64,000 bases of DNA from Escherichia phage UoN_LG358_1, in sequence record OK570374. The stretch is one strand, 5' to 3'. This document shows, one piece after another, positions 16,724-63,953 of this stretch (positions are counted from its first letter, which is position 1; each line of letters opens with the position of its first letter). The notes under the pieces were generated by a model that was given only the letters and a program-made list of their open reading frames with translations, was not told where the DNA came from and did not search any database. Made by a program: the position numbers and the translations under genes.

Positions 16724-16751
16724 TATTACTCTCCAGTTTGTTGATAAAGTA

Positions 16752-16781
16752 ATAGTATCACATCCTTCCATGGATGTAAAC
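16752..16781 (-). promoter_or_regulatory. T4-type early promoter (conserved cassette with CCATGG in spacer)
   Basis: Plus AATAGTATCACATCCTTCCATGGATGTAAACGG; reverse complement gives GTTTAC-18-TACTAT. Confidence 0.4.
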
Positions 16782-16783
16782 GG

Positions 16784-17008
16784 TCAACTCAAACTTTTCA
16801 TTGCTTCTTCAAACGTTAATTTTTTAACTGAAAGATACCGCGCCGAGCTAATTTTCTTACCATTGCTAAGGACGACCAGTGTCCCGTAGTCCCATCCTGA
16901 TAAATCTATTGAGTTCCATATATCAACACATACTTGTAGTGACTCATCCGCTACTATGAACTTCTCGTGACCATCTCGGTCACGATTGGCAATTAAAACA
17001 TAAATCAA
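16784..17008 (-). CDS. hypothetical protein (dmd position)
   Basis: 74-aa ORF immediately downstream of gene 41. Confidence 0.4.
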   Translation of the reverse strand: MIYVLIANRDRDGHEKFIVADESLQVCVDIWNSIDLSGWDYGTLVVLSNGKKISSARYLSVKKLTFEEAMKSLS

Positions 17009-23616: not shown

Positions 23617-23646
23617 TTTATTTTCCTCATTTGTTTTGATGAGATA

Positions 23647-23676
23647 ATAGTAACACATCCTTCCATGGATGTAAAC
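23647..23676 (-). promoter_or_regulatory. T4-type early promoter (conserved cassette)
   Basis: Plus AATAGTAACACATCCTTCCATGGATGTAAACGGTT; overlaps the gene 43 stop codon. Confidence 0.4.
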
Positions 23677-23678
23677 GG

Positions 23679-26372
23679 TTAGAAGTCAAACATATCTTCT
23701 AACGATGCTTTCTCTTCGTAGTCCATACCAGCAGCCTCACACATGCCAGTCAAAGGTTTGACAAAAGACTTCTGAAAGAGTGTGGTGTAATCCATCCAAG
23801 CCAATACTTCTGAACGAATTTCCTGTGGCAACTCAGTACCGGATGGCCAAGCAATGCACTTATCACCAAACGGGTTTCCTTCGCGCAAAGGAACAATCAT
23901 TACTTTGTTCCCCTCAAGAATTGGAGTAGCGCTGAACCCAGCAGTCGCTCGGTTGTAAGTCAAAGCACCTCGAATGTGGAACGGACACTTAAATCCAGGC
24001 CATCCGTTATCATCATACTTGGCGATGTCATTACATGTCTTAACTTCTGCAATGATTTTGTAATCAAGACCACGGTATTCTTTTTCAAACTGTTTGTAAT
24101 ATTCTTGTACTGATTTTTCACCTTCTTGAAGCATACGACGAATACTTTCTTCCAATGCTGCCTGCACCGCCTTTGGAGTAGAAGATTGCTGAGTTTCCAT
24201 ACCCATGATTTTTAGATGCGGCTCAGTGTAACGAGTATCTTCCATGTCATATACGTTCAATGCATAACGTTTCTTAGCTTTCCAGAAACCGCCAATACCC
24301 TTTGAACCAAGAGGAGGACAAGAAATAGCCTCACGGTCCATATGCATTAGGTGTTCTTTATTATTCATGTACTCACAAAGCTCACGGTAAGCTTTGTCAA
24401 TCATAGGTTCCATTTTTTTCTTACCAAATTGGTTCATGAATTCAACCAAATCATTGGTATTTTTAAAACGCTCTAAACCTACTTTTTCAATTACTTTATC
24501 GACAGAAACGTAAACTGAGTCAGTGTCTCCTGCCGCTATAAAATCTTCATTGGTTGTACCGCATACTCGGTTCAGATACTCGTTAATCTTACGAGCAATC
24601 CACTGGATACCAACCTGACCGAACAGAGTGATAGCAGTCGCATTACGGAGGTCAAAATATCGGAAATAAATGTTACCGAGAGCACCATAAAGACTGTTGA
24701 TGAGAATTTTACGGTTCAACTGGTTTGTATTAGCCAAAATACTCGCAAGTTCACAATCATGTTTCATCGCTTTCAGAGCTGATACACTTAACCCGTAGAG
24801 TTCATTCTTCACTTCATCACTAAAATCTTTATAACGCTCAACCTGAATTTTACCGCCAGTACCGCCGGACTTTGAAGCCATAACAGCATTAATAACTTCG
24901 ATGTTACGTTTTTCGGCTTGCTGCTTTTTCTTCCAATCTTTACGTTGGAAAAATACCTTCGCAATCTCAACCGGGATAATACCCTCACGGTCTTTGTGAT
25001 ACATCCAACCATTTGGTGAACATGAATATGTATCACTAGGACGCGGTGCTGTTCCATTGATGTATTCATGAATTGGATGAAGCTTAAACTGACCAGCGAT
25101 AGTTTCTGGACTGATATTCACTTGACGAATGATACTTGGATAAAGAGACGTCAAGTCAAAACTCATAATATAATTACGAGCACATGCTTTTGGTTCAAAT
25201 ACATAAGCACCTGGGAAGCTCTGCTTAACATGCGAACGTCCTTGCGGAACCACTCGCTTATCTTCTTTGAGACTATTGAAAATAATAGCATCCCAGGTTT
25301 TAATCGGACTCATTACACCGCCAAAAGGCATTTTAGCGTAATAAGACATACTAATTGCTAGGTCGATGAACCCACGAACTTGGTCGATACCTTGCACCGA
25401 TTCAACGTCCATGATGTTATAACTGATATAACGTTGGTGGTTCGTTTCACGCAATTTGTTAATCGGACCGTCATAAGGCAGTTTACCTTTTTTGGTCTCA
25501 TATTTTGCAACATAATCCAAAGTATAAGACGGTTGGTTAGTGAAACTGTACTTTTTGTACAAATCCATGTAATCAAGAATAGTTACGCCGTCAATGCTAA
25601 ATACTTCTTTATCACCGTACATGTTAGTGATAATTTTAGATTTCACGCGATTGATTGGTGAAAAACGCTTCATCGAACGTTCACCTAGAACTTGCTTAAC
25701 GCGGTTCATGATATACGGAATATCAAAACCTTCAATGTTCCAACCGGTGAAAATTACTGGACGCTTTTGTTCCCAAAGACGAATATATTCCATCAACAGT
25801 TCGGCTTCAGTTTCAAACGGTAGATAAACAACCCGGTCAAGAATATCTTGTGGAACTTCGTCGCCGCGCTCTGCTTCACACCGAGCTGCTAACTTTTTAT
25901 CCCATTTGGATACTGACCCATACAACGAATGGAGTAAATCAAAGACATAAAATTTGTCATCAATGGAATCGTAATGAGTGATAGCATCAATTTCATATTC
26001 TGCTTTCATCGGGTCTGGGAATTTATCGCCAGTAACTTCGATGTCACAGTTCGCTACACGAATGAATTTTCGGTCATAAACAATTTCGGAACCATATGTG
26101 TCACTGATATATGCGAGTTTAAAATCATCCATTCCCATTGCTTCAAGACCGACATCTTCCATGCGCTTGAACCAATCACGGGCATCCTTCATTGTAGGAA
26201 AATTAATTGGTTCGCAGTCCTTTCCATAGATGTCTTTGAATTTTGATGGTTTATCAACATGACGGAACAGAGTCGGAGAATATTCGACGCGACGAGTTTT
26301 TTCTACGCCATCTTCAATATATCGTTCAACAATATCATTACCAACAGTTTCTACAGATACATAAAATTTCAT
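23679..26372 (-). CDS. 43: DNA polymerase gp43 (family B)
   Basis: 897 aa; exonuclease and polymerase motifs (DxE, YGGA..., DTDS) and long collinear match to T4 gp43. Confidence 0.95.
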   Translation of the reverse strand: MKFYVSVETVGNDIVERYIEDGVEKTRRVEYSPTLFRHVDKPSKFKDIYGKDCEPINFPTMKDARDWFKRMEDVGLEAMGMDDFKLAYISDTYGSEIVYDRKFIRVANCDIEVTGDKFPDPMKAEYEIDAITHYDSIDDKFYVFDLLHSLYGSVSKWDKKLAARCEAERGDEVPQDILDRVVYLPFETEAELLMEYIRLWEQKRPVIFTGWNIEGFDIPYIMNRVKQVLGERSMKRFSPINRVKSKIITNMYGDKEVFSIDGVTILDYMDLYKKYSFTNQPSYTLDYVAKYETKKGKLPYDGPINKLRETNHQRYISYNIMDVESVQGIDQVRGFIDLAISMSYYAKMPFGGVMSPIKTWDAIIFNSLKEDKRVVPQGRSHVKQSFPGAYVFEPKACARNYIMSFDLTSLYPSIIRQVNISPETIAGQFKLHPIHEYINGTAPRPSDTYSCSPNGWMYHKDREGIIPVEIAKVFFQRKDWKKKQQAEKRNIEVINAVMASKSGGTGGKIQVERYKDFSDEVKNELYGLSVSALKAMKHDCELASILANTNQLNRKILINSLYGALGNIYFRYFDLRNATAITLFGQVGIQWIARKINEYLNRVCGTTNEDFIAAGDTDSVYVSVDKVIEKVGLERFKNTNDLVEFMNQFGKKKMEPMIDKAYRELCEYMNNKEHLMHMDREAISCPPLGSKGIGGFWKAKKRYALNVYDMEDTRYTEPHLKIMGMETQQSSTPKAVQAALEESIRRMLQEGEKSVQEYYKQFEKEYRGLDYKIIAEVKTCNDIAKYDDNGWPGFKCPFHIRGALTYNRATAGFSATPILEGNKVMIVPLREGNPFGDKCIAWPSGTELPQEIRSEVLAWMDYTTLFQKSFVKPLTGMCEAAGMDYEEKASLEDMFDF

Positions 26373-29764: not shown

Positions 29765-31446
29765 TTTTCCATTACCGTGAATCTGCCAACTTTCTTCATC
29801 TGAAGATGTTGCCCATAATCCTGCGGGTCATGGTCTTTATGGCTTATGATAAAGATATTACTATCAGTCATTCCATTGAGAATTGTTCCTACTCGCTTAA
29901 TACCTTCATTATCAAACGCGCCATCATAAACTTCATCAAGAAAGAGACAGTTAATTTTAACATTAGAAACTTTTTCAGCAATGTCTCGCCACGTGAACAG
30001 CAACGCAATATCAATACGAGCTTTTTCGCCTTGGCTGAATGACGCATAACTGAATTCTTCGCGCCCGCGAGATTTAATAGTTTCGGTGAATTCTTCGTTC
30101 AAAGTAAAGACATAATCAGCTTCCATAATTTTAAGATACTGATTAATCTGTTTGTTGAACATCGGAATATATTTGCTAATAATAGCTCCCTTGATACCCG
30201 AATCTTTCAGCATTTCAGTTAAAATGCCTCGATGATATTTTTCCATAACCATATTGGATTTGGTATCAACTATTTTATTCAATTCTTCGTTAAGCGTTTT
30301 AATCTCATCGGCATGATTGATGAATTCTTTTGATGCTTTTTCAATCGCCGCTTTTACTTTTTTAGCCTTTTCTACTGTTGAAATTAAAGTTTGCTTTTTA
30401 GATTTTATGTCTTGAGCAAGTTCACGTTGCGTTCTAACGTTGCTCTCATATTCATGCACTAGTGTCTCTAGATTGGCTCTATGACTTTCTAACGACTCTG
30501 ATTTATGTTTACATTCATTAATCTTATCGTTAATCTGAGTGACTAGAGATGACCCAGAGTCTAATTGTTGCATGCATGTTGGGCATGAACCTCCAGAATG
30601 ATACAAAGAAACAACCTTGTTATATGAGTCAATTTTAGACTTAATCAACAGAGTTTGATTACCAATTTCAGTAAACGCGGACCGAGGGTCTTCATCAAGC
30701 ACGATAGATGTTAAACGCTCAGTTGCTTTTTCAATTTCGGATTTGATAGAACGTGCTTCAGTCGCAAGTTCATCATACATGGTCTGAAAACGAGCTATAT
30801 TTTCTCCTGATAGCTTTTTCTGGCGTTCAACGTTCTCTTCATAAATTTTAATCTGTTGGATAATTCCGTCTTTCTTTGCGTCCAACACAGAGACTTGTGA
30901 ATTAATTTCTCTTATATGAGATTTATTCAATTTATCCATTTCAGCTAATGTAGAAACTTCGAGCAAGTCTTCTACTAACTTCCGCCGAGCTGGAGTACTC
31001 AAACCCATGAACGGTGTATAACCAGCTGTACCAAGCACAACTACTTGCTTAAAGCTGGAATAAGACATTTTGATAAGTTCTTCAAAATAGCTTTGAAAAT
31101 CTTTAACAGAAGCTGCCTCGTCCAGGCGAACTCCGTCTCGAGTTATTTCAAAGATATTCGGCTTTTGACCGCGCTTTATATAAAAATGCTTACCGTCATA
31201 CTCCATCCAAAGCTCTACTAACATATCTTTTTTATTAATAGAGTTTACTAGTTGTCCTTTCTTAATATCACGGAACGGTTTGCCAAATAAAGCAAATGTA
31301 ATAGCTTCCAGCATGGTACTCTTACCACCACCATTTTTGCCGGTGATGAGAGTTTTTTGTACCTTATCAAGTTGAATATCAATTGGAACTTGTCCAACAG
31401 ACATTATATTAGAATATTTTACTCTATTAAGTTTAAAGGTTTTCAT
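29761..31446 (-). CDS. 46: recombination endonuclease subunit gp46 (Rad50/SbcC-like)
   Basis: 561 aa; Walker A GKNGGGKST, coiled-coil middle with CPTC zinc hook, signature/Walker B at C-terminus. Confidence 0.9.
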   Translation of the reverse strand: MKTFKLNRVKYSNIMSVGQVPIDIQLDKVQKTLITGKNGGGKSTMLEAITFALFGKPFRDIKKGQLVNSINKKDMLVELWMEYDGKHFYIKRGQKPNIFEITRDGVRLDEAASVKDFQSYFEELIKMSYSSFKQVVVLGTAGYTPFMGLSTPARRKLVEDLLEVSTLAEMDKLNKSHIREINSQVSVLDAKKDGIIQQIKIYEENVERQKKLSGENIARFQTMYDELATEARSIKSEIEKATERLTSIVLDEDPRSAFTEIGNQTLLIKSKIDSYNKVVSLYHSGGSCPTCMQQLDSGSSLVTQINDKINECKHKSESLESHRANLETLVHEYESNVRTQRELAQDIKSKKQTLISTVEKAKKVKAAIEKASKEFINHADEIKTLNEELNKIVDTKSNMVMEKYHRGILTEMLKDSGIKGAIISKYIPMFNKQINQYLKIMEADYVFTLNEEFTETIKSRGREEFSYASFSQGEKARIDIALLFTWRDIAEKVSNVKINCLFLDEVYDGAFDNEGIKRVGTILNGMTDSNIFIISHKDHDPQDYGQHLQMKKVGRFTVMEK

Positions 31447-32275
31447 TTAATATCCGTCTGTCAAATTCGGCTACTATAGCTTGTAAAGAACTTGTTATGG
31501 GATGCCCGAGTTTAATAAGTTCTTTTGAAAATGTAGAATATCTAGGTTTATTCATTTTAATCCACTCTGTATAAAGCAAATCAAAATTTTGCCATTGATA
31601 CGATTTTCTTCTGGATTTTAAATGAGCCTCTCTAATTTCGTCATTCTTCCAACTTTGAGAAACTCCCAATGATAAAGATTTACGATAATCTAAATTTTTA
31701 GATGAGAGTCTAGTTGCATTTAAATGCTTAATTTTATTTTCTGGATTTTCAAACCACTCTTTAGTTTTCTTAGATACTAAAGACTTAAATTCATTTGAAT
31801 TTACTCGTTCCAGGTGAATTTTTAAATTATCGGAATTTTCAAACCATCGTTTGACTGCTTGGCTAATTTTTATTCTGTTTTCTGCTATTGAATAATAACT
31901 GGACATTTTGATTGAAATAGCCTTTGAAATTTCAGTAGAAACTTTTGAATATATTTTAGCCATTTCTTCAAATTCTTCAAAACTACATTTATAAGCAGTT
32001 TTGCTATTATTCATTCTATTAATAGCTTGCAACATTCTATAATCTTTAGTTTCAGACAATATAGCATGTGCAATAAAATGGTTATAATGTGTTAAATGCA
32101 CAATATTTGACGGGTCTTTAGCATATTCTGGAAAAATGGACTTTGGTAAAATATGATGAGCTTGAGTATGTCCTTTGTTTAACTTGGTTGAATTAGTTTT
32201 AATAAATTCTACATACTTATTAACGCCTTCCCATTGAGGGAAGGCTGCTTTTAATATAGTCTCAGCGTCAATCAT
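31433..32275 (-). CDS. HNH homing endonuclease inserted between genes 46 and 47
   Basis: 280 aa; HHILPKS...NIVHLTHYNHFIAH HNH motif plus repeated WFEN-type motifs in the C-terminal half; overlaps both neighbours. Confidence 0.65.
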   Translation of the reverse strand: MIDAETILKAAFPQWEGVNKYVEFIKTNSTKLNKGHTQAHHILPKSIFPEYAKDPSNIVHLTHYNHFIAHAILSETKDYRMLQAINRMNNSKTAYKCSFEEFEEMAKIYSKVSTEISKAISIKMSSYYSIAENRIKISQAVKRWFENSDNLKIHLERVNSNEFKSLVSKKTKEWFENPENKIKHLNATRLSSKNLDYRKSLSLGVSQSWKNDEIREAHLKSRRKSYQWQNFDLLYTEWIKMNKPRYSTFSKELIKLGHPITSSLQAIVAEFDRRILNENL

Positions 32276-37333: not shown

Positions 37334-37351
37334 TTGTGTGGTATGAGGTAA

Positions 37352-37380
37352 TAGTAACACAGTTTTTGGAGGATGTAAAC
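37352..37380 (-). promoter_or_regulatory. T4-type early promoter
   Basis: Plus ATAGTAACACAGTTTTTGGAGGATGTAAAC; reverse complement GTTTAC-18-TACTAT. Confidence 0.4.
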
Positions 37381-37398
37381 GGTTGATATGAAAGAAAA

Positions 37399-41677: not shown

Positions 41678-41842
41678 CTCAATTATATAGCCAATATGTC
41701 CTTGCCCATTTCTTACGGTTTCGGATTTGAGTTTTAGTCGGCTTAGTAGAGAACCACCAGGAAATTTTATATCCATCGTCAAAATCAAAAATTAGATGCC
41801 ATTTAGACATCTGATTTGATACATACTTTAATTCAGTTTTCA
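41678..41842 (-). CDS. small hypothetical protein (54 aa)
   Basis: Hand-translated MKTELKYVSNQMSKWHLIFDFDDGYKISWWFSTKPTKTQIRNRKKWARTYWLYN. Confidence 0.2.
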
Positions 41843-41850
41843 TTTAAATA

Positions 41851-42270
41851 CTAGCTGGAAAAAGATAGCTGTTTTTCTAGAGCTCGAATATAATCCGCTG
41901 CTGCTTGCATTATATTAGCTTCATACCCATTAACACGGATTTTCGCGGCTTCAAGATGGTCTGTTATTGGTTGTCCGTCGTCAAAAAATCCTAAAGTAAC
42001 CGCTGGAAATAAATCAGAATCATATTCTTCGATTTCTTTAAGTTGATACATACCGTCTTCACAGTAAAAACACCAGAACCAACTATCGCGAGCGTTAATA
42101 TGAAGATAAGGGCCGTTTTTAATTTTGACAGAAGTGATACCGTCTTCATGGCCGTTTTCTTTGTCAACAGTAATAACTTTAAAAACAGTTCCGACTTTCA
42201 TTTCAGGAAATTGTTCCAGAAGTTCTTCATCGTCTTCAATAATTTCAAAAACTTTATTCACTAAACTCAT
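41851..42270 (-). CDS. hypothetical protein
   Basis: Track ORF (151 aa) with probable start at ATG 42270 directly after the upstream stop. Confidence 0.4.
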   Translation of the reverse strand: MSLVNKVFEIIEDDEELLEQFPEMKVGTVFKVITVDKENGHEDGITSVKIKNGPYLHINARDSWFWCFYCEDGMYQLKEIEEYDSDLFPAVTLGFFDDGQPITDHLEAAKIRVNGYEANIMQAAADYIRALEKQLSFSS

Positions 42271-46321: not shown

Positions 46322-47104
46322 TTAATTGGTAAGCATTTTAACAGCAGATGGGCGTTTATAAAAAGCGTGAGTATTGTCATCAACTGCTTTAGTAAAAGTA
46401 GCTTTGAACTCAATTTCGCCGCGATAATTTACATCAACTGCTCCAGGTAATGAACCATAAACAGTAGCTCCATTTTCAAGACGCACCATCATTTTAGCAG
46501 ATACTCCCCAATAGTCTTGGTAAATTTTTGTTGAAACTACTCTGCCTTTTACTACTTGTTTTCCTTCAGGTGCTTCGCCTTTAGTTGCTTTAAGTTTATC
46601 GTAGTAAGCATTGAACCATTCTTCGGAGTATTTCTGAATTGCTTCAAGAATACTTTTATGGGCTCTAATTTCTGCCATCAAAACTGCAGTATTATCTTCA
46701 AGTTCCCAATGCTTATATGGTTCGCGGACTTCAATAGGGCATCCGTAAAGCTTGAGCTCATTAAGCATATCAGATGTTAAACGAAGTTTCCACCAGCCAA
46801 AATCTCCAGTGAATTCCGGCTTATCTAAAACATCGAGCTCAGTAACATACGGAAGGTAACTCCCTCCATGATAAGCTTCAACTTCGCCAAGTTCATTTTC
46901 CCAAAGATAACCGTCAAACGGAGCATGTGGACGGTCGTCAATTCCCCATGTTGGTGCAACCACCCTTTCAAATCCTTCGCGACTGTAGAGAGTCTTCGCC
47001 CATCCTGCATTCAATTCCTGAGCGTATTTTTCAACTTTCGCTCGGCGAGCAGCACGTGCTTTGCGATTTTCATCTAAGATTGAATTGATGATATCAGTTA
47101 ACAT
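46322..47104 (-). CDS. hypothetical protein
   Basis: 260-aa ORF in track. Confidence 0.45.
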   Translation of the reverse strand: MLTDIINSILDENRKARAARRAKVEKYAQELNAGWAKTLYSREGFERVVAPTWGIDDRPHAPFDGYLWENELGEVEAYHGGSYLPYVTELDVLDKPEFTGDFGWWKLRLTSDMLNELKLYGCPIEVREPYKHWELEDNTAVLMAEIRAHKSILEAIQKYSEEWFNAYYDKLKATKGEAPEGKQVVKGRVVSTKIYQDYWGVSAKMMVRLENGATVYGSLPGAVDVNYRGEIEFKATFTKAVDDNTHAFYKRPSAVKMLTN

Positions 47105-47157
47105 TTTAGTCTCCGTTAGTAGATTACGAGACTATCATATACTAAACTTAATTCGTT

Positions 47158-47205
47158 GTAAACGGTTGAAGTAAAAATTTTTGAATTCGCCAGAACGGTT
47201 GAGAG
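47158..47205 (-). repeat. third (diverged) copy of the 48-bp element found in the 122-bp tandem repeat near 62.3 kb
   Basis: GTAAACGGTTGAAGTAAAAATTTTTGAATTCGCCAGAACGGTTGAGAG differs at one position from 62242..62289. Confidence 0.6.
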
Positions 47206-47245
47206 GAACTTTCTTAGGAAGGATGATTAATCATATTACGAGGAT

Positions 47246-47272
47246 ATAAAAATGCCCCAGCGAAGCCGGGGC
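47246..47272 (-). terminator. putative intrinsic terminator
   Basis: Minus-strand RNA CCCCGGC-UUCG-CUGGGG followed by AUUUUUAU. Confidence 0.5.
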
Positions 47273-47277
47273 GTACA

Positions 47278-47607
47278 CTAGTGGTAAGATGGCGCAACAT
47301 TGTCACCTTGGAACCAGGCCGAATTGGAAGATACTTTATTAGCATATTCCCATTTTTCTGTTAAGTCATTTAGCCCGGCTTGCATTTTCGCGTATGACGC
47401 TTGCTGATATCGGTCCATTGTTATTAAAGATTTTGCCATTGCGGACAAAAGTTTTCGCCTACCTTCATTGCCATAATTATGAATAAGCGTTCTATTATAT
47501 TCCGGCACTAAAAATGAAAGCGAATGTCTGATGTCAGACAAATGCTCAGCCTTTAATTTTAATCTTTTAACGGCAATAGTTTTTCTTAACTTTTCAATCA
47601 TTGTCAA
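47278..47607 (-). CDS. hypothetical protein
   Basis: 109-aa ORF in track. Confidence 0.4.
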   Translation of the reverse strand: MTMIEKLRKTIAVKRLKLKAEHLSDIRHSLSFLVPEYNRTLIHNYGNEGRRKLLSAMAKSLITMDRYQQASYAKMQAGLNDLTEKWEYANKVSSNSAWFQGDNVAPSYH

Positions 47608-48698: not shown

Positions 48699-49676
48699 TT
48701 ATTTCAGCATTGTTACTTCTGAGATTTCACGCCAATTTTTCTCGTCTGTTGCTACGAAATCCGCCAAATACAAGGCAGTACGTAATGATACATTACGAAG
48801 ACGGTTTACGTTGTTTTTCATAAATTCGAGAACATCAACAACCTGTGAATTACGTAATCCGCGATTTTGTAACATCCGGGTATTCATAATAACTTCTTCA
48901 ACGCGGACCATTATTTCTTCATTTGAATGAACACCTAAATCTAAATAAACTGAACGTGATACCAAAGCAGCAAGATGCGGTGCTAATTTGCTTCCACGTT
49001 CTAATTCTTTATCAATATCAACGTTTGTGATAAAAACTACTGTTCCCTCATATTCAAATTCATTTGGGATGTTTTTTTCTTCCAAGTAAGAAGAAGCAGT
49101 ACTCCAACATACCTTACGTTTATCACCCGAATCCAAAGCAGCTTTAAGAAGATTTAGAATATCCATATCAGAAAATACGTCCACATCATCAATAAGCAGA
49201 ACTGAATTAGCTTCACGAGATTCCCAAAGACGGCAGTAAAGACCAATCCCGGAAATTTTACCATTGACTGATTTATATTCAATTCTACCATCATTGTGAG
49301 CATTTTCCAATGCTTTATCTAAGGTGTAAGTTTTACCAATACCCGCAGCGCCCGAGATGATAAGTGAACGAATGTTACCATTTATAATACCATTCGTCAT
49401 AAATCCCATAACGTTAAAGCGCTTATTAATGCGAGCTTTCATATCATCTACGCTTTCGATAAGTTCAATCTTTTTAGTAGTTCCGCTGTAGCTGATATCT
49501 GATTTGTAAACCCAAACACCTTTTTTCTTACCATTAATCATTACGAATACTTTACCATCACCTTGGGCAGCATCTTCGGGTTTCAAAGTTTCCGGGAACC
49601 ATTCCCCTACTAATTCGAACGTCCCGGAAATTTCTTTTCCGAAGTTAATACCTTTATTGATAGTGATGGTTGTCAT
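48699..49676 (-). CDS. P-loop NTPase (AAA-like ATPase) of unknown function
   Basis: Walker A GAAGIGKT, Walker B VLLIDDVD, sensor-like FITN; start at ATG 49676 downstream of an early promoter. Confidence 0.5.
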   Translation of the reverse strand: MTTITINKGINFGKEISGTFELVGEWFPETLKPEDAAQGDGKVFVMINGKKKGVWVYKSDISYSGTTKKIELIESVDDMKARINKRFNVMGFMTNGIINGNIRSLIISGAAGIGKTYTLDKALENAHNDGRIEYKSVNGKISGIGLYCRLWESREANSVLLIDDVDVFSDMDILNLLKAALDSGDKRKVCWSTASSYLEEKNIPNEFEYEGTVVFITNVDIDKELERGSKLAPHLAALVSRSVYLDLGVHSNEEIMVRVEEVIMNTRMLQNRGLRNSQVVDVLEFMKNNVNRLRNVSLRTALYLADFVATDEKNWREISEVTMLK

Positions 49677-49725
49677 TTTATTCTCCAAGTTAGTTTTTGT
49701 TTTACCATTTATTTGGTATGAAGTA

Positions 49726-49755
49726 ATAGTATCATCATTTCATACCGTTGTAAAC
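49726..49755 (-). promoter_or_regulatory. T4-type early promoter with -10 inside hairpin loop
   Basis: GTTTAC-18-TACTAT on the minus strand; inverted repeat GGTATGAA/TTCATACC (49715..49746) brackets the -10. Confidence 0.4.
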
Positions 49756-53305: not shown

Positions 53306-53687
53306 CTTACACTCCCCAGATATTAAAGTTCATTGTAAACTTACTTTAGCAAATTCAGCGATATTATTCGTTGTCCACTGTTTCCCAAGCAAGAGTTACT
53401 ACAATGTTTTCAATAGATTGCACTAAGTGTTGTTTTGCACCAGTTGATAAATCATACTGACATAACGAATTAGCTAATTCAATTAACTTTCTTTTAGTCT
53501 CTTCATGAGCTGTTTCGTCATATTTCATTGTAAACTTCCCTTAACTAATTCAACGATACCATTCACAAGATTGTAAGTAAACAATGGATGATTGTATTGA
53601 ACGAACAGATAAACAGCAATAATAACGTTTTTCATATATCCTCCATATGATGAGATAATTATACCATATCTCATCATGAATGTACAA

Positions 53688-54107: not shown

Positions 54108-54137
54108 GATATTTTCCTCATTTGTTTTGATAAGTTA

Positions 54138-54167
54138 ATAGTAACACAGTTTTTGGAGGATGTAAAC
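54138..54167 (-). promoter_or_regulatory. T4-type early promoter
   Basis: Plus ATAGTAACACAGTTTTTGGAGGATGTAAACGGTTGATATGAAA, near-identical to the cassette at 37352..37380. Confidence 0.4.
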
Positions 54168-54182
54168 GGTTGATATGAAAAT

Positions 54183-59366: not shown

Positions 59367-59542
59367 TTGTTTCTCTTAAGTTTGTGGGCCGTTCCGTGGC
59401 ACATGATTGGTCCTTCTACCGCTATGTAAACCCATTACCGCACTTGGGCTCGACCTTATTACAGGTTGGAAAAGGTTCATCACTCAGAGGACACGACGTT
59501 CATGAGGAGAGGCTGCGTTACCCTTTATTAGGCAGGAAATGT

Positions 59543-60878: not shown

Positions 60879-61211
60879 TTATTTAAAAGCAGCTTTCAAT
60901 TCTTTGAATGCTTTAGAACTCAAAGTAAAAGATTCAGCGCCGATGCGAAAGAATGCGCTGTCATTATCTACAGCTACACCAATTTGTGTAGAACCCTCAG
61001 AGCCCTTCCACTTACCACCGTCGCGAAGGACTTTGACAATAGCTGTGGTTTGTAGTTTAGATGTCTGAAAACGTTCATTTCCAATTTGGAAGTAAACCCC
61101 ATCTTTATCAGTTACTAAAGCGAATTTAGTCGACCCTTCTGTGTCTTTAATAGTAGCTTCAGCGATCTGAGACAATAATGCCTCAGTAATAAATTCATCA
61201 TATGTTTTCAT
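60879..61211 (-). CDS. internal protein with capsid-targeting sequence
   Basis: Start at ATG 61211: [15 protein letters not shown]...; two internally similar halves. Confidence 0.55.
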
Positions 61212-61698
61212 ATGCTTTCCAAGTTCCTGTTTCAAAAGTTTTAATAACGCGGCGTGCGCGATTAGTTGTTTGTCTGTACCATTTAGATTGAGCTAAATTT
61301 ACAGCAGCTCTATCCCAATCTTTAGCTTTTAATAAAGCCATAGAATTTTTAAAACCCGCTACACCAGCTACACCCATTTGAAAAACCATGTTAATCAGAG
61401 CAGCCAGACGAGGTTCATCACCAATAAAAGAATTATATACAGGTTTTAATGTAGCATTTTTAAGAATTCCAGAAACTGCAGTTTCAACATCATTCTTGAA
61501 AATAAGTTCAGCTTCTGATTGAGTAATTTTGCCAGACGTATTACGGCCAACAAGACGGTCCAACTCACTGATAGCTACGGATTTATTAGGGTTTTTAGTC
61601 AAAAGATGACCTATACCGACGGTCCAAAAACCTTCGGTATCTTTATAAATTTCAAGTTTTAAACCTTCGTCGATGCGAAGCATGTCAAAAATGTTCAT
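61198..61698 (-). CDS. e: endolysin (T4 lysozyme)
   Basis: 166 aa; [35 protein letters not shown]... near-identical to T4 lysozyme. Confidence 0.9.
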
Positions 61699-61726: not shown

Positions 61727-62023
61727 TTAATCCCAACTTTTGACAAAAAGGTCTGTCATGAATTCTTCTAGTCGGGTTTCTACAGACGAGGAAACGTCAG
61801 ATGATGTAGAAACTAGATAACCACAGATAGGCTTAAAACTTTCTAAATTACTTTCCATTTCATATTTAATTTGCTCTTCGGACTCATTATCACCAAATGA
61901 ATAGAGATAATTATATCCATTTTTTGAATTTACATAAATTGCTACACTCATTATACCGTCCAAATTATATAGTACGTCCTTCGACGATTTTAGCGAAAGA
62001 CCAATTTTTAGTAATAAACTCAA
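61727..62023 (-). CDS. hypothetical protein
   Basis: 98-aa ORF in track (start may be internal). Confidence 0.35.
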   Translation of the reverse strand: MSLLLKIGLSLKSSKDVLYNLDGIMSVAIYVNSKNGYNYLYSFGDNESEEQIKYEMESNLESFKPICGYLVSTSSDVSSSVETRLEEFMTDLFVKSWD

Positions 62024-62165
62024 TGATTAAATTCAATTCTTTAGCTTCGACAATATCAGTTACGTGGTTTTCGTGATTTCCAGTATTCAGAACAGCACGG
62101 AAACGATCGAATTTACCAAAATCGTTAGTTACTTTATCGATAGTTACAGTGTTAAATTTAGCCAT
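61965..62165 (-). CDS. hypothetical small protein
   Basis: Start at ATG 62165; MAKFNTVTIDKV...; leader and promoter near-identical to those of the gene starting at 49676. Confidence 0.4.
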   Translation of the reverse strand: MAKFNTVTIDKVTNDFGKFDRFRAVLNTGNHENHVTDIVEAKELNLIIEFITKNWSFAKIVEGRTI

Positions 62166-62219
62166 GATTTTATTCTCCAAGTTAGTTTTTGTTTTACCAT
62201 TTATTTGGTATGAAGTAAT

Positions 62220-62341
62220 AATAACACATCCGTCCATGGATGTAAACGGTTGAAGTAAAAATTTTTGAATTCACCAGAACGGTTGAGAGATTGGATACAG
62301 AAAGGATAATAGATTATAAATCTATACAAATAAAAATGCCC
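62220..62341 (-). repeat. 122-bp tandem direct repeat, copy 1 (contains an early promoter)
   Basis: Identical to 62342..62463 by direct comparison. Confidence 0.85.
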
Positions 62342-62463
62342 AATAACACATCCGTCCATGGATGTAAACGGTTGAAGTAAAAATTTTTGAATTCACCAGA
62401 ACGGTTGAGAGATTGGATACAGAAAGGATAATAGATTATAAATCTATACAAATAAAAATGCCC
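62342..62463 (-). repeat. 122-bp tandem direct repeat, copy 2 (contains an early promoter)
   Basis: Identical to 62220..62341. Confidence 0.85.
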
Positions 62464-62480
62464 TAGAGTTAAACTAGGGC
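62452..62480 (-). terminator. putative intrinsic terminator
   Basis: GCCCTAG-AGTTAAA-CTAGGGC hairpin followed by AUUUUUAUUU in the minus orientation. Confidence 0.5.
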
Positions 62481-62488
62481 GTGAGAGA

Positions 62489-63049
62489 TTAAATCTTATA
62501 GAACCTGAACGGATTTATATGGAAAGCAAGCATTGCTCTGGGTATCGGACGGGATAATAAGCTTTTAAGTTTCCACCCACAATAAACTCGTAGGTAAAAT
62601 TGAATTTTTCCAATTCTTAGATAAGGAACAGCAGCAAAAACTCCCCAAGCGTCATCGTTCCACATAAACAGCCATCCATGATGAGCTTTATCTGGAGAAC
62701 CCGATTCTACATTAGGGTTTCCACGATAATGAAACTCAGATGTAGCGGGGCGGCCAAGGACATAATATGCAAAGTTATAAGCTTTATTTCGCCACAGCCA
62801 TGCTACGCGTTGAAAGTATTTACCTAAAACTGGAATTTTACGAATTTTCGACCAGCGTTCAATATGTCCACGGTCTCCATCAATAGGATTGTCGTATGTT
62901 TCCATCCAACGGAATCCTTTAGGTAAGTGACCAGTCTTTTCAGAATAGAATGGAACAATAAATGGAGTCAATACAACAGCTAAAACCATAGAAATGAAAT
63001 CTAGTGGAACAAGAAAAATCCATGAAGCGTATTTTAGAAATTTAGTCAT
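62489..63049 (-). CDS. hypothetical membrane protein
   Basis: 186 aa; N-terminal hydrophobic segment IFLVPLDFISMVLAVVLTPFIV. Confidence 0.45.
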   Translation of the reverse strand: MTKFLKYASWIFLVPLDFISMVLAVVLTPFIVPFYSEKTGHLPKGFRWMETYDNPIDGDRGHIERWSKIRKIPVLGKYFQRVAWLWRNKAYNFAYYVLGRPATSEFHYRGNPNVESGSPDKAHHGWLFMWNDDAWGVFAAVPYLRIGKIQFYLRVYCGWKLKSLLSRPIPRAMLAFHINPFRFYKI

Positions 63050-63176: not shown

Positions 63177-63253
63177 TGGTCGAGACAGAAGGATTCTAAC
63201 CTTCAACCTACGGTTTAGAAGACCGTTGCTCTATACTATTAAGCTATGCCTCG
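63177..63253 (-). tRNA. tRNA-Arg (anticodon UCU), CCA encoded
   Basis: Hand-folded cloverleaf: acceptor CGAGGCA/TGTCTCG, D stem GCTT/GAGC, anticodon stem ACGGT/ACCGT with loop CTTCTAA, T stem GAAGG/CCTTC. Confidence 0.55.
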
Positions 63254-63819
63254 GAAATAGTTTTGCGTCTATATACTTCTCCGTCGTAATATTTATCGAC
63301 AAGACGCTTTACTTGACTGTGTGATATTTTTAATATTTTAGAGGCATCAGAAACCCACCCAAATTTAGTTTTATCCACGTCTTTTATTAAGTTTAATTGA
63401 GACGTAGATAATTCTAGACCTCTAATCTTGGCTTTAGCACTACCAGCTTTTCCTAGTTTAACACCGGCCAAATAAAGTTGTTCCTTGGTTCGAGTATCAA
63501 CTCTTTTTCCATTTGTATGGAGGTCTTTATTATTTTGGCTATTAGTAGCGCAATAAACATTTTCAATAGAATAAGGTCCAGAATCACCGATGCGACACAT
63601 ACAATATTGTTGAGCTTTATTACCGCGTTTTTCTAATTTTCCAGTTGAAATCCACCAATTAAGCCAGGACTCATATGTAAATAACCATTCTATGTTTCTA
63701 GCCTTCGCCTTTCTTCTTTGATTTTCATATTTAACTTTCATGTTTATTGCTTTCACTCGGCTATCCAATTTTAAGAAGAGTGAGAGTCTTAGTCTTGTAC
63801 GGAGTAACCTTTTATGCAT
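63244..63819 (-). CDS. hypothetical protein in tRNA cluster; possible HNH-family (HNH_3-like) homing endonuclease
   Basis: YCMCRIGDSGPYSIENVYCATNSQNN resembles an HNH_3 core with Arg in place of His; start uncertain (ATG 63819 or 63741). Confidence 0.35.
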   Translation of the reverse strand: MHKRLLRTRLRLSLFLKLDSRVKAINMKVKYENQRRKAKARNIEWLFTYESWLNWWISTGKLEKRGNKAQQYCMCRIGDSGPYSIENVYCATNSQNNKDLHTNGKRVDTRTKEQLYLAGVKLGKAGSAKAKIRGLELSTSQLNLIKDVDKTKFGWVSDASKILKISHSQVKRLVDKYYDGEVYRRKTISEA

Positions 63820-63877: not shown

Positions 63878-63953
63878 TGGCTGGGAATACTGGGCTCGAA
63901 CCAGTGCATCCCGGAATCAAAATCCGGTGCCTTACCAACTTGGCTAATTCCCA
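63878..63953 (-). tRNA. tRNA-Gln (anticodon UUG), CCA encoded
   Basis: Reverse complement TGGGAATTAGCCAAGTTGGTAAGGCACCGGATTTTGATTCCGGGATGCACTGGTTCGAGCCCAGTATTCCCAGCCA folds as a canonical cloverleaf. Confidence 0.8.

What the first reader, a model, noticed from the sequence alone, without database searches (positions are those of the whole stretch)
62220..62463. Perfect 122-bp tandem duplication carrying an early promoter, with a third partial copy 15 kb away
Two identical 122-bp units sit head to tail, each containing GTTTAC-18-TATTAT, giving tandem promoters. A 48-bp core with one mismatch recurs at 47158..47205 upstream of another gene. Perfect identity suggests a recent duplication or an element maintained by recombination.
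Basis: seen in the sequence. Interest (0 to 1): 0.5.

Follow-up and report, generated by a model that had tools for sequence, protein, structure and literature searches.

The report
Duplicated terminator-promoter cassette in T4-like phage
The repeat is one copy too many of an ordinary terminator-plus-early-promoter cassette (a "PeSL") of a Salmonella T4-like phage; the extra copy occurs in this genome only, lacks a complete promoter, and may be a recent accident or an assembly error.

Summary
In detail: 62220-62341 and 62342-62463 are identical 122-bp units, and a 48-bp core recurs at 47158-47205 with one mismatch. The window is an S16-like Salmonella phage (Gelderlandvirus), 99.7-99.9% identical to STP4-a. 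Genes here are on the minus strand. On that strand the unit runs from the 3' arm of an intrinsic terminator, through an A/T tract and -35, to the first four bases of the -10. It is one PeSL-type terminator/early-promoter cassette, a known kind in T4-like phages. Only the downstream copy has a full promoter (TTTACA-17-TATTAT). The junction turns the upstream -10 into TATTGG, so "tandem promoters" is not supported. All nine related genomes carry one copy. The junction occurs in no public collection, has no microhomology and has no template elsewhere. The duplication is therefore either very recent and non-homologous (about 0.55) or a leftover assembly overlap (about 0.35). Reads are needed to decide. 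The 47-kb copy is a paralogous cassette. A variable patch in the core has been swapped between the two sites twice, in opposite directions, and phage CGG4-1 has two ORFs inserted at joints inside this promoter. That is the documented PeSL shuffling behaviour. Overall an ordinary, well-explained feature of modest interest.

The parts
62489..63049 (-). Upstream gene (186 aa, DUF7338 / phrog_2143, unknown function) whose transcript the cassette terminates
   Evidence: ORF list. Pfam PF24027, E=4e-66. PHROG match.
62450..62480 (-). Intrinsic terminator: hairpin GCCCTAG-TTTAACT-CTAGGGC (62480..62460) followed by ATTTTTATTT. Its last four stem bases (GGGC) and the T-run are the first bases of the repeat unit.
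   Evidence: Terminator scan: 7 pairs, 5 GC. The hairpin is present in both the MFE and centroid RNA folds. The homologous site is annotated as a terminator in Melville and AKM_NP4.
62342..62463 (-). Upstream copy of the 122-bp unit (first in the direction of transcription). It contains the T-run, conserved upstream blocks, A/T tract, -35, TGn and only TATT of the -10.
62340..62368 (-). Truncated promoter copy TTTACA-17-TATTGG: UP-like tract, -35 and TGn are intact, but the -10 has lost its last two bases including the -7 T
   Evidence: Direct read-out. Not called by the promoter scan. Fails TTTACW-N17-TAYWAT.
62220..62341 (-). Downstream copy of the 122-bp unit. It begins with GGGC plus the T-run but lacks the 5' arm of the hairpin, so it has no terminator.
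62218..62246 (-). The only complete early promoter: TTTACA-17-TATTAT with TG at -15/-14 and a small hairpin (ACATCC-ATGGAC-GGATGT) in the spacer
   Evidence: Promoter scan: 10 of 12 matches, TG present. Exact match to the T4/PST PeSL consensus.
62242..62289 (-). 48-bp upstream module (from the -35 hexamer GTTTAC to about -83), also present at 62364-62411; 47 of 48 bases identical to site A
   Evidence: alignments.
62167..62226 (-). Leader/Shine-Dalgarno module (-10 to start codon), 97% identical to the leader of an unrelated gene at 49675-49734
   Evidence: the repeat finder family D5. The downstream genes differ.
61965..62165 (-). First gene driven by the cassette: 66-aa ORF of unknown function (MAKFNTV...), followed by a 74-aa ORF and the e lysozyme gene
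   Evidence: No Pfam hit. phrog_3720, unknown function. Annotated as 66 aa in Melville, STML-198 and CGG4-1.
47134..47272 (-). Site A, the paralogous cassette: terminator hairpin 47272..47254 plus T-run, 48-bp module 47205..47158, promoter TTTACA-17-TATGAT 47162..47134. It drives a 260-aa gene (46322-47104) downstream of a DUF7203 gene (47278-47607).
23645..23680 (-). Early promoter sharing the -35-to--10 hairpin-spacer module of site B (94% over 36 nt); a second such promoter lies at 16747-16784 (92% over 38 nt)
   Evidence: blastn-short and promoter census; the repeat finder families D1, D3, D4.
49675..49734 (-). Leader module shared with site B, here upstream of a 325-aa gene (48699-49676)

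Best explanation
The 122-bp unit is one complete PeSL-type regulatory cassette of an S16-like T4-type phage, read on the minus strand. It comprises the end of an intrinsic terminator that stops transcription from the DUF7338 gene, about 100 bp of conserved upstream sequence with an A/T (UP-like) tract, and a strong host-sigma-70 early promoter (TTTACA-17-TGn-TATTAT) that restarts transcription into a 66-aa ORF of unknown function and the genes beyond it. This cassette is modular: its upstream module is shared with the cassette at 47 kb, its hairpin spacer with promoters at 23.7 and 16.8 kb, and its leader with a gene at 49.7 kb. These modules are exchanged between loci by homologous recombination and gene conversion; this is inferred from comparative patterns, not observed directly. 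In this one genome the cassette has been duplicated head to tail by a very recent, non-homologous (blunt, untemplated) event whose breakpoints lie in the terminator's 3' stem arm and inside the -10 hexamer. The result is one intact terminator, then a promoter copy with a crippled -10 (TATTGG; predicted silent or weak, at best of the -35/TGn class), then one intact promoter 122 bp further from the terminator. The expected effect on expression is small. T4-type recombination acts efficiently on repeats of this length (recalled knowledge), so the duplication should be unstable, and its perfect identity reflects its youth rather than maintenance.
For: Identity and anatomy. Genome identity as Gelderlandvirus, 99.7-99.9% to STP4-a. 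PeSL definition (sigma-70-like early promoter + AT-rich region + stem-loop, about 100 bp conserved, in hyperplastic regions upstream of ORFans, recombination between copies): PMC2839356. T4-type consensus TTTACW-N17-TAYWAT: PMC4122927. The window has 11 consensus matches on the minus strand, 0 on the plus strand and about 0.09 expected; the intact copy matches and the junction copy does not. Three-module mosaic. Gene conversion between sites A and B: six genomes have A=GAATTC and B=TAACTTT, S16 has TAACTTT at both, and STP4-a and this window have GAATTC at both. Cassette-mediated insertion of two ORFs at site A in CGG4-1, with joints inside the promoter. The cassette is conserved over about 100 bp at non-homologous loci in Karamvirus and Moonvirus. 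Single copy in STP4-a, S16, STML-198, Melville, CF-SP2, ABTNLPp2, UTK0003, AKM_NP4 and SEA1; CGG4-1 also shows one cassette at the site. Evidence for a real event: the duplication lies wholly in non-coding DNA and leaves one terminator, one promoter and both genes intact. A randomly placed 122-bp segment would do so only 1.05-2.5% of the time in the STP4-a annotation. The rest of the window is a clean, near-identical relative of STP4-a.
Against: No reads are available, so the reality of the duplication is unproven. The junction is absent from GenBank phages, IMG/VR, metagenome contigs and GTDB genomes, and no independent assembly of this genome was found. A blunt junction with no microhomology is less typical of replication slippage and is exactly what an untrimmed circular-contig overlap produces. 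Promoter and terminator activities are inferred from consensus matches and from homology with tested PeSLs in other phages; they were not measured here. The upstream copy keeps its UP-like tract, -35 and TGn, and sigma-70 promoters can work with two of the three sigma elements (PMC2988021), so it may not be fully silent.
Confidence: 0.55

Rival explanations
1. Assembly artefact: the true genome has one cassette. A circular or circularly permuted contig was left with a 122-bp terminal overlap, and the record was then re-oriented to the conventional start (collinear with STP4-a and S16) without trimming. That placed two perfect copies head to tail inside the sequence.
For: The two copies are perfectly identical, the junction is blunt with no microhomology, and no template for the junction exists anywhere. 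The duplication is private to this genome, while a 99.9%-identical relative has one copy. The junction is absent from all collections searched. The window is collinear with STP4-a at a small offset, consistent with a re-oriented record. The locus is rich in repeated modules and hairpins, which can end contigs; Arbiol et al. report PeSL stem-loops blocking sequencing reactions.
Against: A randomly placed overlap would lie wholly in non-coding DNA only 1.05-2.5% of the time, yet this one spares both flanking genes, the terminator and one promoter. The ends of the unit do not coincide with the ends of the repeated modules (core 62242-62289 versus unit 62220-62341), so a repeat-induced contig break is not obviously the cause. 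122 is not a default k-mer of the common assemblers I know of (own knowledge, not tested). No other perfect duplication occurs in the window.
Confidence: 0.35
2. Adaptive tandem promoters: the duplication is real and both copies fire, raising early expression of the 66-aa ORF and downstream genes, and it is kept by selection.
For: The upstream copy retains the A/T tract, -35 and TGn, and promoters can function with -35 and TGn alone (PMC2988021). The junction also creates a weak new match, TGGGCA-18-TATAAT at 62342..62313. Nothing between the copies would terminate transcripts, because the downstream copy lacks the 5' arm of the hairpin.
Against: The upstream -10 is TATTGG and lacks the conserved -7 T. 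It fails both promoter scans. No relative has the duplication, so there is no sign of recurrent or sustained selection.
Confidence: 0.08
3. Old duplication kept identical by continual gene conversion between the two tandem copies.
For: Gene conversion between cassettes clearly happens in this genus.
Against: Every related genome, including one that is 99.9% identical locally, has a single copy. An old duplication would have to have been lost independently many times. A direct repeat of 122 bp is more likely to be deleted than homogenised.
Confidence: 0.02

Closest known systems
PeSL (promoter-early stem-loop) cassettes of T4-type phages (Arbiol et al. 2010, PMC2839356; Comeau et al. 2014, PMC4122927)
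   Same: A sigma-70-like early promoter with an A/T-rich tract upstream of the -35, plus stem-loops: a terminator upstream and a small hairpin between -35 and -10, the commonest PeSL subclass. Conservation extends over about 100 bp. The cassette is repeated at many intergenic sites co-oriented with early genes, sits in a variable region upstream of genes of unknown function, and matches TTTACW-N17-TAYWAT exactly. Comparative evidence shows exchange and ORF insertion at the cassettes.
   Different: PeSLs had been described for the RB49/phi1, T4/PST and KVP40/nt-1 pairs; no paper in the library links them to S16-like phages. The main terminator here lies about 85 bp upstream of the -35, further than in the five subclasses described. 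A head-to-tail duplication of a whole cassette with no ORF between the copies, made by a non-homologous join, is not part of the published model. Comeau et al. contains the word 'duplication' zero times.
T4 early promoters of the 'UP/-35/TGn/-10' class (Hinton 2010 review, PMC2988021)
   Same: All four elements are present in the intact copy. The orientation bias (11 on one strand, 0 on the other) and the position in front of early-region genes also fit.
   Different: Conservation extends well beyond the UP region, to about -105, and across genera. The second copy lacks a usable -10.
Classical tandem duplications of T4 (rII-region duplications; recalled from the 1960s-70s genetics literature, not retrieved here)
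   Same: Head-to-tail duplications arise spontaneously in T-even phages and are unstable because of the very active recombination system.
   Different: Those were kilobase-scale and selected genetically. This one is 122 bp, non-coding and known only from a sequence record.
Untrimmed terminal overlap of a circular contig (a common artefact in deposited phage genomes)
   Same: A perfect, blunt, private direct repeat of about 100 bp in a circularly permuted phage genome.
   Different: Such overlaps normally sit at record ends or at arbitrary, mostly coding, positions. This one is internal and exactly spares all functional elements.

Membership tests
PeSL cassette | Sigma-70-like early promoter (T4/PST type: TTTACW-N17-TAYWAT) | tested here: met
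   The downstream copy reads TTTACA-17-TATTAT at 62246..62218. The upstream copy does not meet it (TATTGG).
PeSL cassette | [quoted passage not shown] | tested here: met
   CAAAAATTTTTAC lies immediately upstream of the -35 region in both copies and at site A.
PeSL cassette | Stem-loop able to act as terminator/attenuator within or next to the promoter | tested here: met
   Hairpin at 62480..62460 plus T-run, and a spacer hairpin between -35 and -10; the hairpin appears in the RNA fold. This is a structure prediction only.
PeSL cassette | Repeated, about 100 bp conserved, intergenic, co-oriented with early genes | tested here: met
   11 consensus promoters on the minus strand against 0 on the plus strand and about 0.09 expected. 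Repeat families D1-D5. Cross-genus alignment.
PeSL cassette | Located in a hyperplastic region next to ORFs of unknown function that differ between close relatives | tested here: met
   The e-to-tRNA region differs in gene content among STP4-a, S16, STML-198 and Melville. The driven genes have no known function.
PeSL cassette | Recombination between copies producing exchanges or indels | tested here: met
   Two opposite gene conversions of the core patch between sites A and B. Two-ORF insertion in CGG4-1 with joints inside the promoter. The evidence is comparative; no recombination was observed directly.
PeSL cassette | Demonstrated promoter and terminator activity; mini-circle formation | not testable with these tools
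   Needs reporter assays, transcript mapping and PCR for circles, as done for phi1/RB49.
Tandem (dual) promoters | Two complete promoters in series upstream of one gene | tested here: not met
   Only one complete -35/-10 pair exists; the other -10 is TATTGG.
Assembly-overlap artefact | No sequencing read spans the junction; coverage per copy is halved | not testable with these tools
   No reads are available, and no independent assembly of this genome was found.
Assembly-overlap artefact | Position arbitrary with respect to genes | tested here: inconclusive
   Only 1.05-2.5% of random 122-bp placements are wholly non-coding, which argues against a random break. Contig breaks may, however, favour repeat-rich intergenic DNA.
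Microhomology-mediated (slippage) duplication | Short direct repeat at the two breakpoints | tested here: not met
   No shared base at either boundary.

The most novel reading that the evidence does not exclude
The duplication is real and is a snapshot of how new PeSL slots are born: a cassette first duplicates in tandem by a non-homologous join, creating two adjacent recombination targets between which foreign ORFs can later be inserted, as CGG4-1 shows at the sister site. In addition, the cross-genus conservation of the -60 to -105 part of the cassette may reflect a second function, for example a conserved divergent promoter. On the opposite strand the conserved blocks read T(T/C)GAG(A/G), 16-17 bp, then (G/A)AT(G/A)AT. 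Such a promoter would make an antisense RNA against the 3' end of the upstream gene, or the blocks could instead be a factor-binding site.
Probability: 0.1. Interest if true: 0.5.

Novelty: new member of a known kind. Interest (0 to 1): 0.22.

Why it matters
If the duplication is real, it adds a small piece to the PeSL story: cassettes can multiply locally by non-homologous duplication as well as being swapped by homologous exchange. The locus is also an unusually clean example of a three-module mosaic promoter region, with gene conversion between sites 15 kb apart. If it is an artefact, the record needs a 122-bp correction. Practically, the perfect repeat would be a deletion hot spot and a trap for read mapping and primer design in a phage of a genus used for Salmonella biocontrol. 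Neither outcome changes current understanding of T4-type gene regulation.

Tried and rejected
(1) I searched for the junction 31-mer in IMG/VR, metagenome contigs and GTDB genomes, and by BLAST in GenBank phages. Nothing was found. (2) I looked for an independent assembly of the same phage through the exact DUF7338 protein. Only STP4-a and SEA1 came back. (3) I scanned IMG/VR and metagenomes with a site-B-specific 33-mer for more relatives. The only hit was a 158,099-bp contig (the STML-198 genome length) with one copy. (4) I tested whether the junction was templated by another locus. No contiguous match exists in any phage, and the window has only chance-level near-matches. (5) I tested for microhomology at the breakpoints and found none, so simple slippage is rejected. 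(6) Rfam found nothing at either site; the only hit was a meaningless one at E=0.98, so a curated structured RNA is rejected. (7) A literature search for T4 tandem duplication and illegitimate recombination returned nothing relevant. The statements about T4 duplications, topoisomerase-mediated illegitimate recombination and the roughly 50-bp homology requirement therefore rest on my own recollection. (8) Phage L66 was checked as a possible source genome because it was isolated on the same host strain; it is a Kuttervirus and irrelevant. (9) The short ORFs inside the repeat (52 and 45 aa) were rejected as by-products of the duplication. (10) A T4 late promoter on the plus strand was considered because of TATAAATC at 62315-62322 and 62437-62444. 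It was rejected because the motif is not conserved in the family alignment.

Full report
OBSERVATION. The sequence is as described. Tandem Repeats Finder reports one array at 62220-62463 with period 122, 2.0 copies, 100% matches and score 488; it is the only array in the 64-kb window scoring above 50. A string comparison confirms that 62220-62341 and 62342-62463 are identical. The 48-bp core is found at 62242-62289 and 62364-62411 with 0 mismatches and at 47158-47205 with 1 mismatch, against 0.00 matches expected in shuffles. One detail is wrong. The promoter motif lies on the minus strand, and the last two bases of its -10 hexamer (62219-62218) lie outside the repeat. The downstream copy therefore reads GTTTAC-18-TATTAT, but the upstream copy reads GTTTAC-18-TATTGG.

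WHAT GENOME THIS IS. The window belongs to an S16-like T4-type Salmonella phage (Straboviridae, Gelderlandvirus). STP4-a is the nearest record, at 99.7-99.9% identity with a handful of block indels. S16, STML-198, Melville, CF-SP2, ABTNLPp2, SEA1 and CGG4-1 are 92-97% identical. All local genes are on the minus strand: lysozyme e (61198-61698), a 74-aa ORF, a 66-aa ORF (61965-62165), then the repeat, then a DUF7338 gene (62489-63049), tRNA-Arg, a 191-aa ORF and tRNA-Gln. Gene content in this stretch differs among close relatives, so it is a hyperplastic region.

ANATOMY ON THE TRANSCRIBED STRAND. Downstream of the DUF7338 stop codon lies an intrinsic terminator, GCCCTAG-TTTAACT-CTAGGGC followed by ATTTTTATTT (62480-62450). 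The repeat unit starts at the last four stem bases (GGGC). It then runs through the T-run, about 40 bp of moderately conserved sequence, the 48-bp core (CTCTCAACCGTTCTGGTGAATTCAAAAATTTTTACTTCAACC followed by GTTTAC) and a spacer holding a small hairpin (ACATCC-ATGGAC-GGATGT) and TGn. It ends after TATT of the -10. After the second unit come AT (completing TATTAT), a 46-nt leader, GGAG and the ATG at 62165. The promoter scan finds only one minus-strand promoter of this type, TTTACA-17-TATTAT with TG, at 62246..62218. The upstream copy keeps the A/T tract, -35 and TGn, but its -10 is TATTGG. It fails the scan and fails the published T4-type PeSL consensus TTTACW-N17-TAYWAT. Sigma-70 promoters can work with two of the three sigma elements (PMC2988021), so it may retain some weak activity, but it is not a second copy of the promoter. 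The downstream unit lacks the 5' arm of the hairpin, so there is no second terminator.

WHAT KIND OF ELEMENT. This is the composite terminator/early-promoter cassette described as a PeSL in T4-type phages. [quoted passage not shown] PeSLs are concentrated in hyperplastic regions upstream of ORFans and serve as sites of recombinational shuffling (PMC2839356; PMC4122927). The window holds 11 matches to TTTACW-N17-TAYWAT on the minus strand and none on the plus strand, against about 0.09 expected. Several of these have a terminator hairpin immediately upstream, for example those at 54166 and 37379. Site A at 47 kb has the same layout: terminator 47272-47254, the core, and TTTACA-17-TATGAT at 47162-47134. 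It drives a 260-aa gene of unknown function.

MODULARITY AND RECOMBINATION. Site B is a three-part mosaic.
- Its upstream module matches site A at 47 of 48 bases.
- Its -35-to--10 hairpin spacer matches promoters at 23.7 and 16.8 kb (94% and 92%).
- Its leader and Shine-Dalgarno region matches the leader at 49.7 kb at 97% over 60 nt, although that leader precedes an unrelated 325-aa gene.

Across genomes, a variable patch inside the core tells the history. Melville, STML-198, CF-SP2, ABTNLPp2, SEA1 and CGG4-1 have GAATTC at site A and TAACTTT at site B. S16 has TAACTTT at both sites. STP4-a and this window have GAATTC at both. That implies two gene conversions in opposite directions between sites 15 kb apart. 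In CGG4-1, two ORFs have been inserted at site A with joints at the shared GTTTACA and at the -10, and the new spacer is identical to that of CGG4-1's own site B. The cassette is also conserved over about 100 bp at non-homologous loci in other genera, for example downstream of topoisomerase gene 52 in Karamvirus PG7, CC31 and KaAlpha, and in Moonvirus Merlin. The third copy is therefore a paralogous cassette kept similar by recombination, as the PeSL model predicts.

THE DUPLICATION ITSELF. Every relative examined has exactly one cassette at site B. STP4-a's single copy is identical to the unit. The junction sequence is absent from GenBank phages, IMG/VR, metagenome contigs and GTDB genomes. 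No further relatives or independent assemblies were found. The junction has no microhomology and no template elsewhere. It was therefore not made by slippage between short repeats or by recombination between cassettes. Two explanations remain.

(a) A very recent non-homologous duplication. Possible routes are end joining or topoisomerase-mediated illegitimate recombination; this is my inference from recalled T4 literature and was not tested.

(b) An untrimmed overlap of a circular contig that was carried inside the record when it was re-oriented.

For (a): the duplicated segment lies wholly in non-coding DNA and spares the terminator, one promoter and both genes. Only 1.05-2.5% of random 122-bp placements in the STP4-a annotation are wholly non-coding, whereas viability selection would produce exactly this outcome. 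The window otherwise looks like a clean assembly. For (b): perfect identity, a blunt junction and privacy to one record are the signature of that artefact, and repeat- and hairpin-rich intergenic DNA may attract contig ends. I put (a) at about 0.55 and (b) at about 0.35. Only reads or PCR can decide.

CONSEQUENCES IF REAL. The functional promoter moves 122 bp further from the terminator. A decoy RNA-polymerase binding site (UP, -35, TGn) is added upstream, and a marginal new match, TGGGCA-18-TATAAT, appears at the junction. I expect little change in expression of the 66-aa ORF and downstream genes. I also expect frequent loss of one copy by homologous recombination, so the perfect identity reflects the duplication's youth.

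VERDICT. The structural observation is correct, the tandem-promoter reading is not, and the element belongs to a known class. It is a new member of a known kind, of modest interest. The most useful results are the correction that only one promoter is complete, the clear evidence of cassette exchange in this genus, and the flag that the duplication needs read-level confirmation.

Noticed in passing
62283-62310, 62405-62432 and 47199-47227 (+ strand): On the strand opposite the early promoter, the conserved upstream blocks of the cassette read as a sigma-70-like promoter: TTGAGA-16-GATAAT at site B and TTGAGA-17-GATGAT at site A. Both hexamers and their spacing are largely conserved in Karamvirus and Moonvirus copies, as T(T/C)GAG(A/G) and (G/A)AT(G/A)AT. 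This could be a divergent promoter giving antisense RNA into the 3' end of the upstream gene, or a protein-binding site.
   Followed up: partly
L019-L023 (KaAlpha, Merlin, PG7, CC31, CkP1) versus window 62220-62341 and 47134-47272: The roughly 100-bp cassette, including sequence as far as about -105, well beyond a UP element, is conserved across three genera at non-homologous loci, for example just downstream of topoisomerase gene 52 in Karamvirus. The reason for conservation that far upstream is unexplained.
   Followed up: partly
L006 500-1180 (CGG4-1 site A): CGG4-1 carries two extra ORFs at site A (one annotated as DUF4031 in RefSeq), with joints at GTTTACA and at the -10. This is a clean example of cassette-mediated gene insertion.
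   Followed up: yes
L001 2066-2338 (STP4a_122); window 61965-62237: The STP4-a annotation starts this gene at an ATG that lies between the -35 and -10 of its own promoter (90 aa). Melville, STML-198 and CGG4-1 annotate 66 aa starting at MAKFNTV, which has a GGAG Shine-Dalgarno sequence. The STP4-a start is probably over-extended.
   Followed up: partly
63244-63819 (-), between tRNA-Arg 63177-63253 and tRNA-Gln 63878-63953: A 191-aa ORF (phrog_16521, unknown function, no Pfam hit) overlaps the end of tRNA-Arg by 10 nt. The alignment with STP4-a stops at 63257, whereas S16 and STML-198 align through it. It is therefore an indel between very close relatives inside the tRNA cluster.
   Followed up: partly
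37343-37393 and 54130-54180 (-): Two early promoters 16.8 kb apart are 96% identical over 51 nt, with an identical -35/spacer/-10 (TTTACATCCTCCAAAAACTGTGTTACTAT). Each has a different terminator hairpin directly upstream. This is another PeSL pair that could recombine.
   Followed up: no
31384-32271, 41778-42227 and about 59386-59466: These are block differences from STP4-a. About 890 bp in the window replaces about 260 bp of STP4-a. About 450 bp is present only in the window. About 830 bp is present only in STP4-a near the internal-protein genes. Their contents were not examined.
   Followed up: no
53329-53369 and 53524-53564: A 41-nt direct repeat (83% identity) with 195-bp spacing, containing TTGTAAAC. 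Not examined.
   Followed up: no
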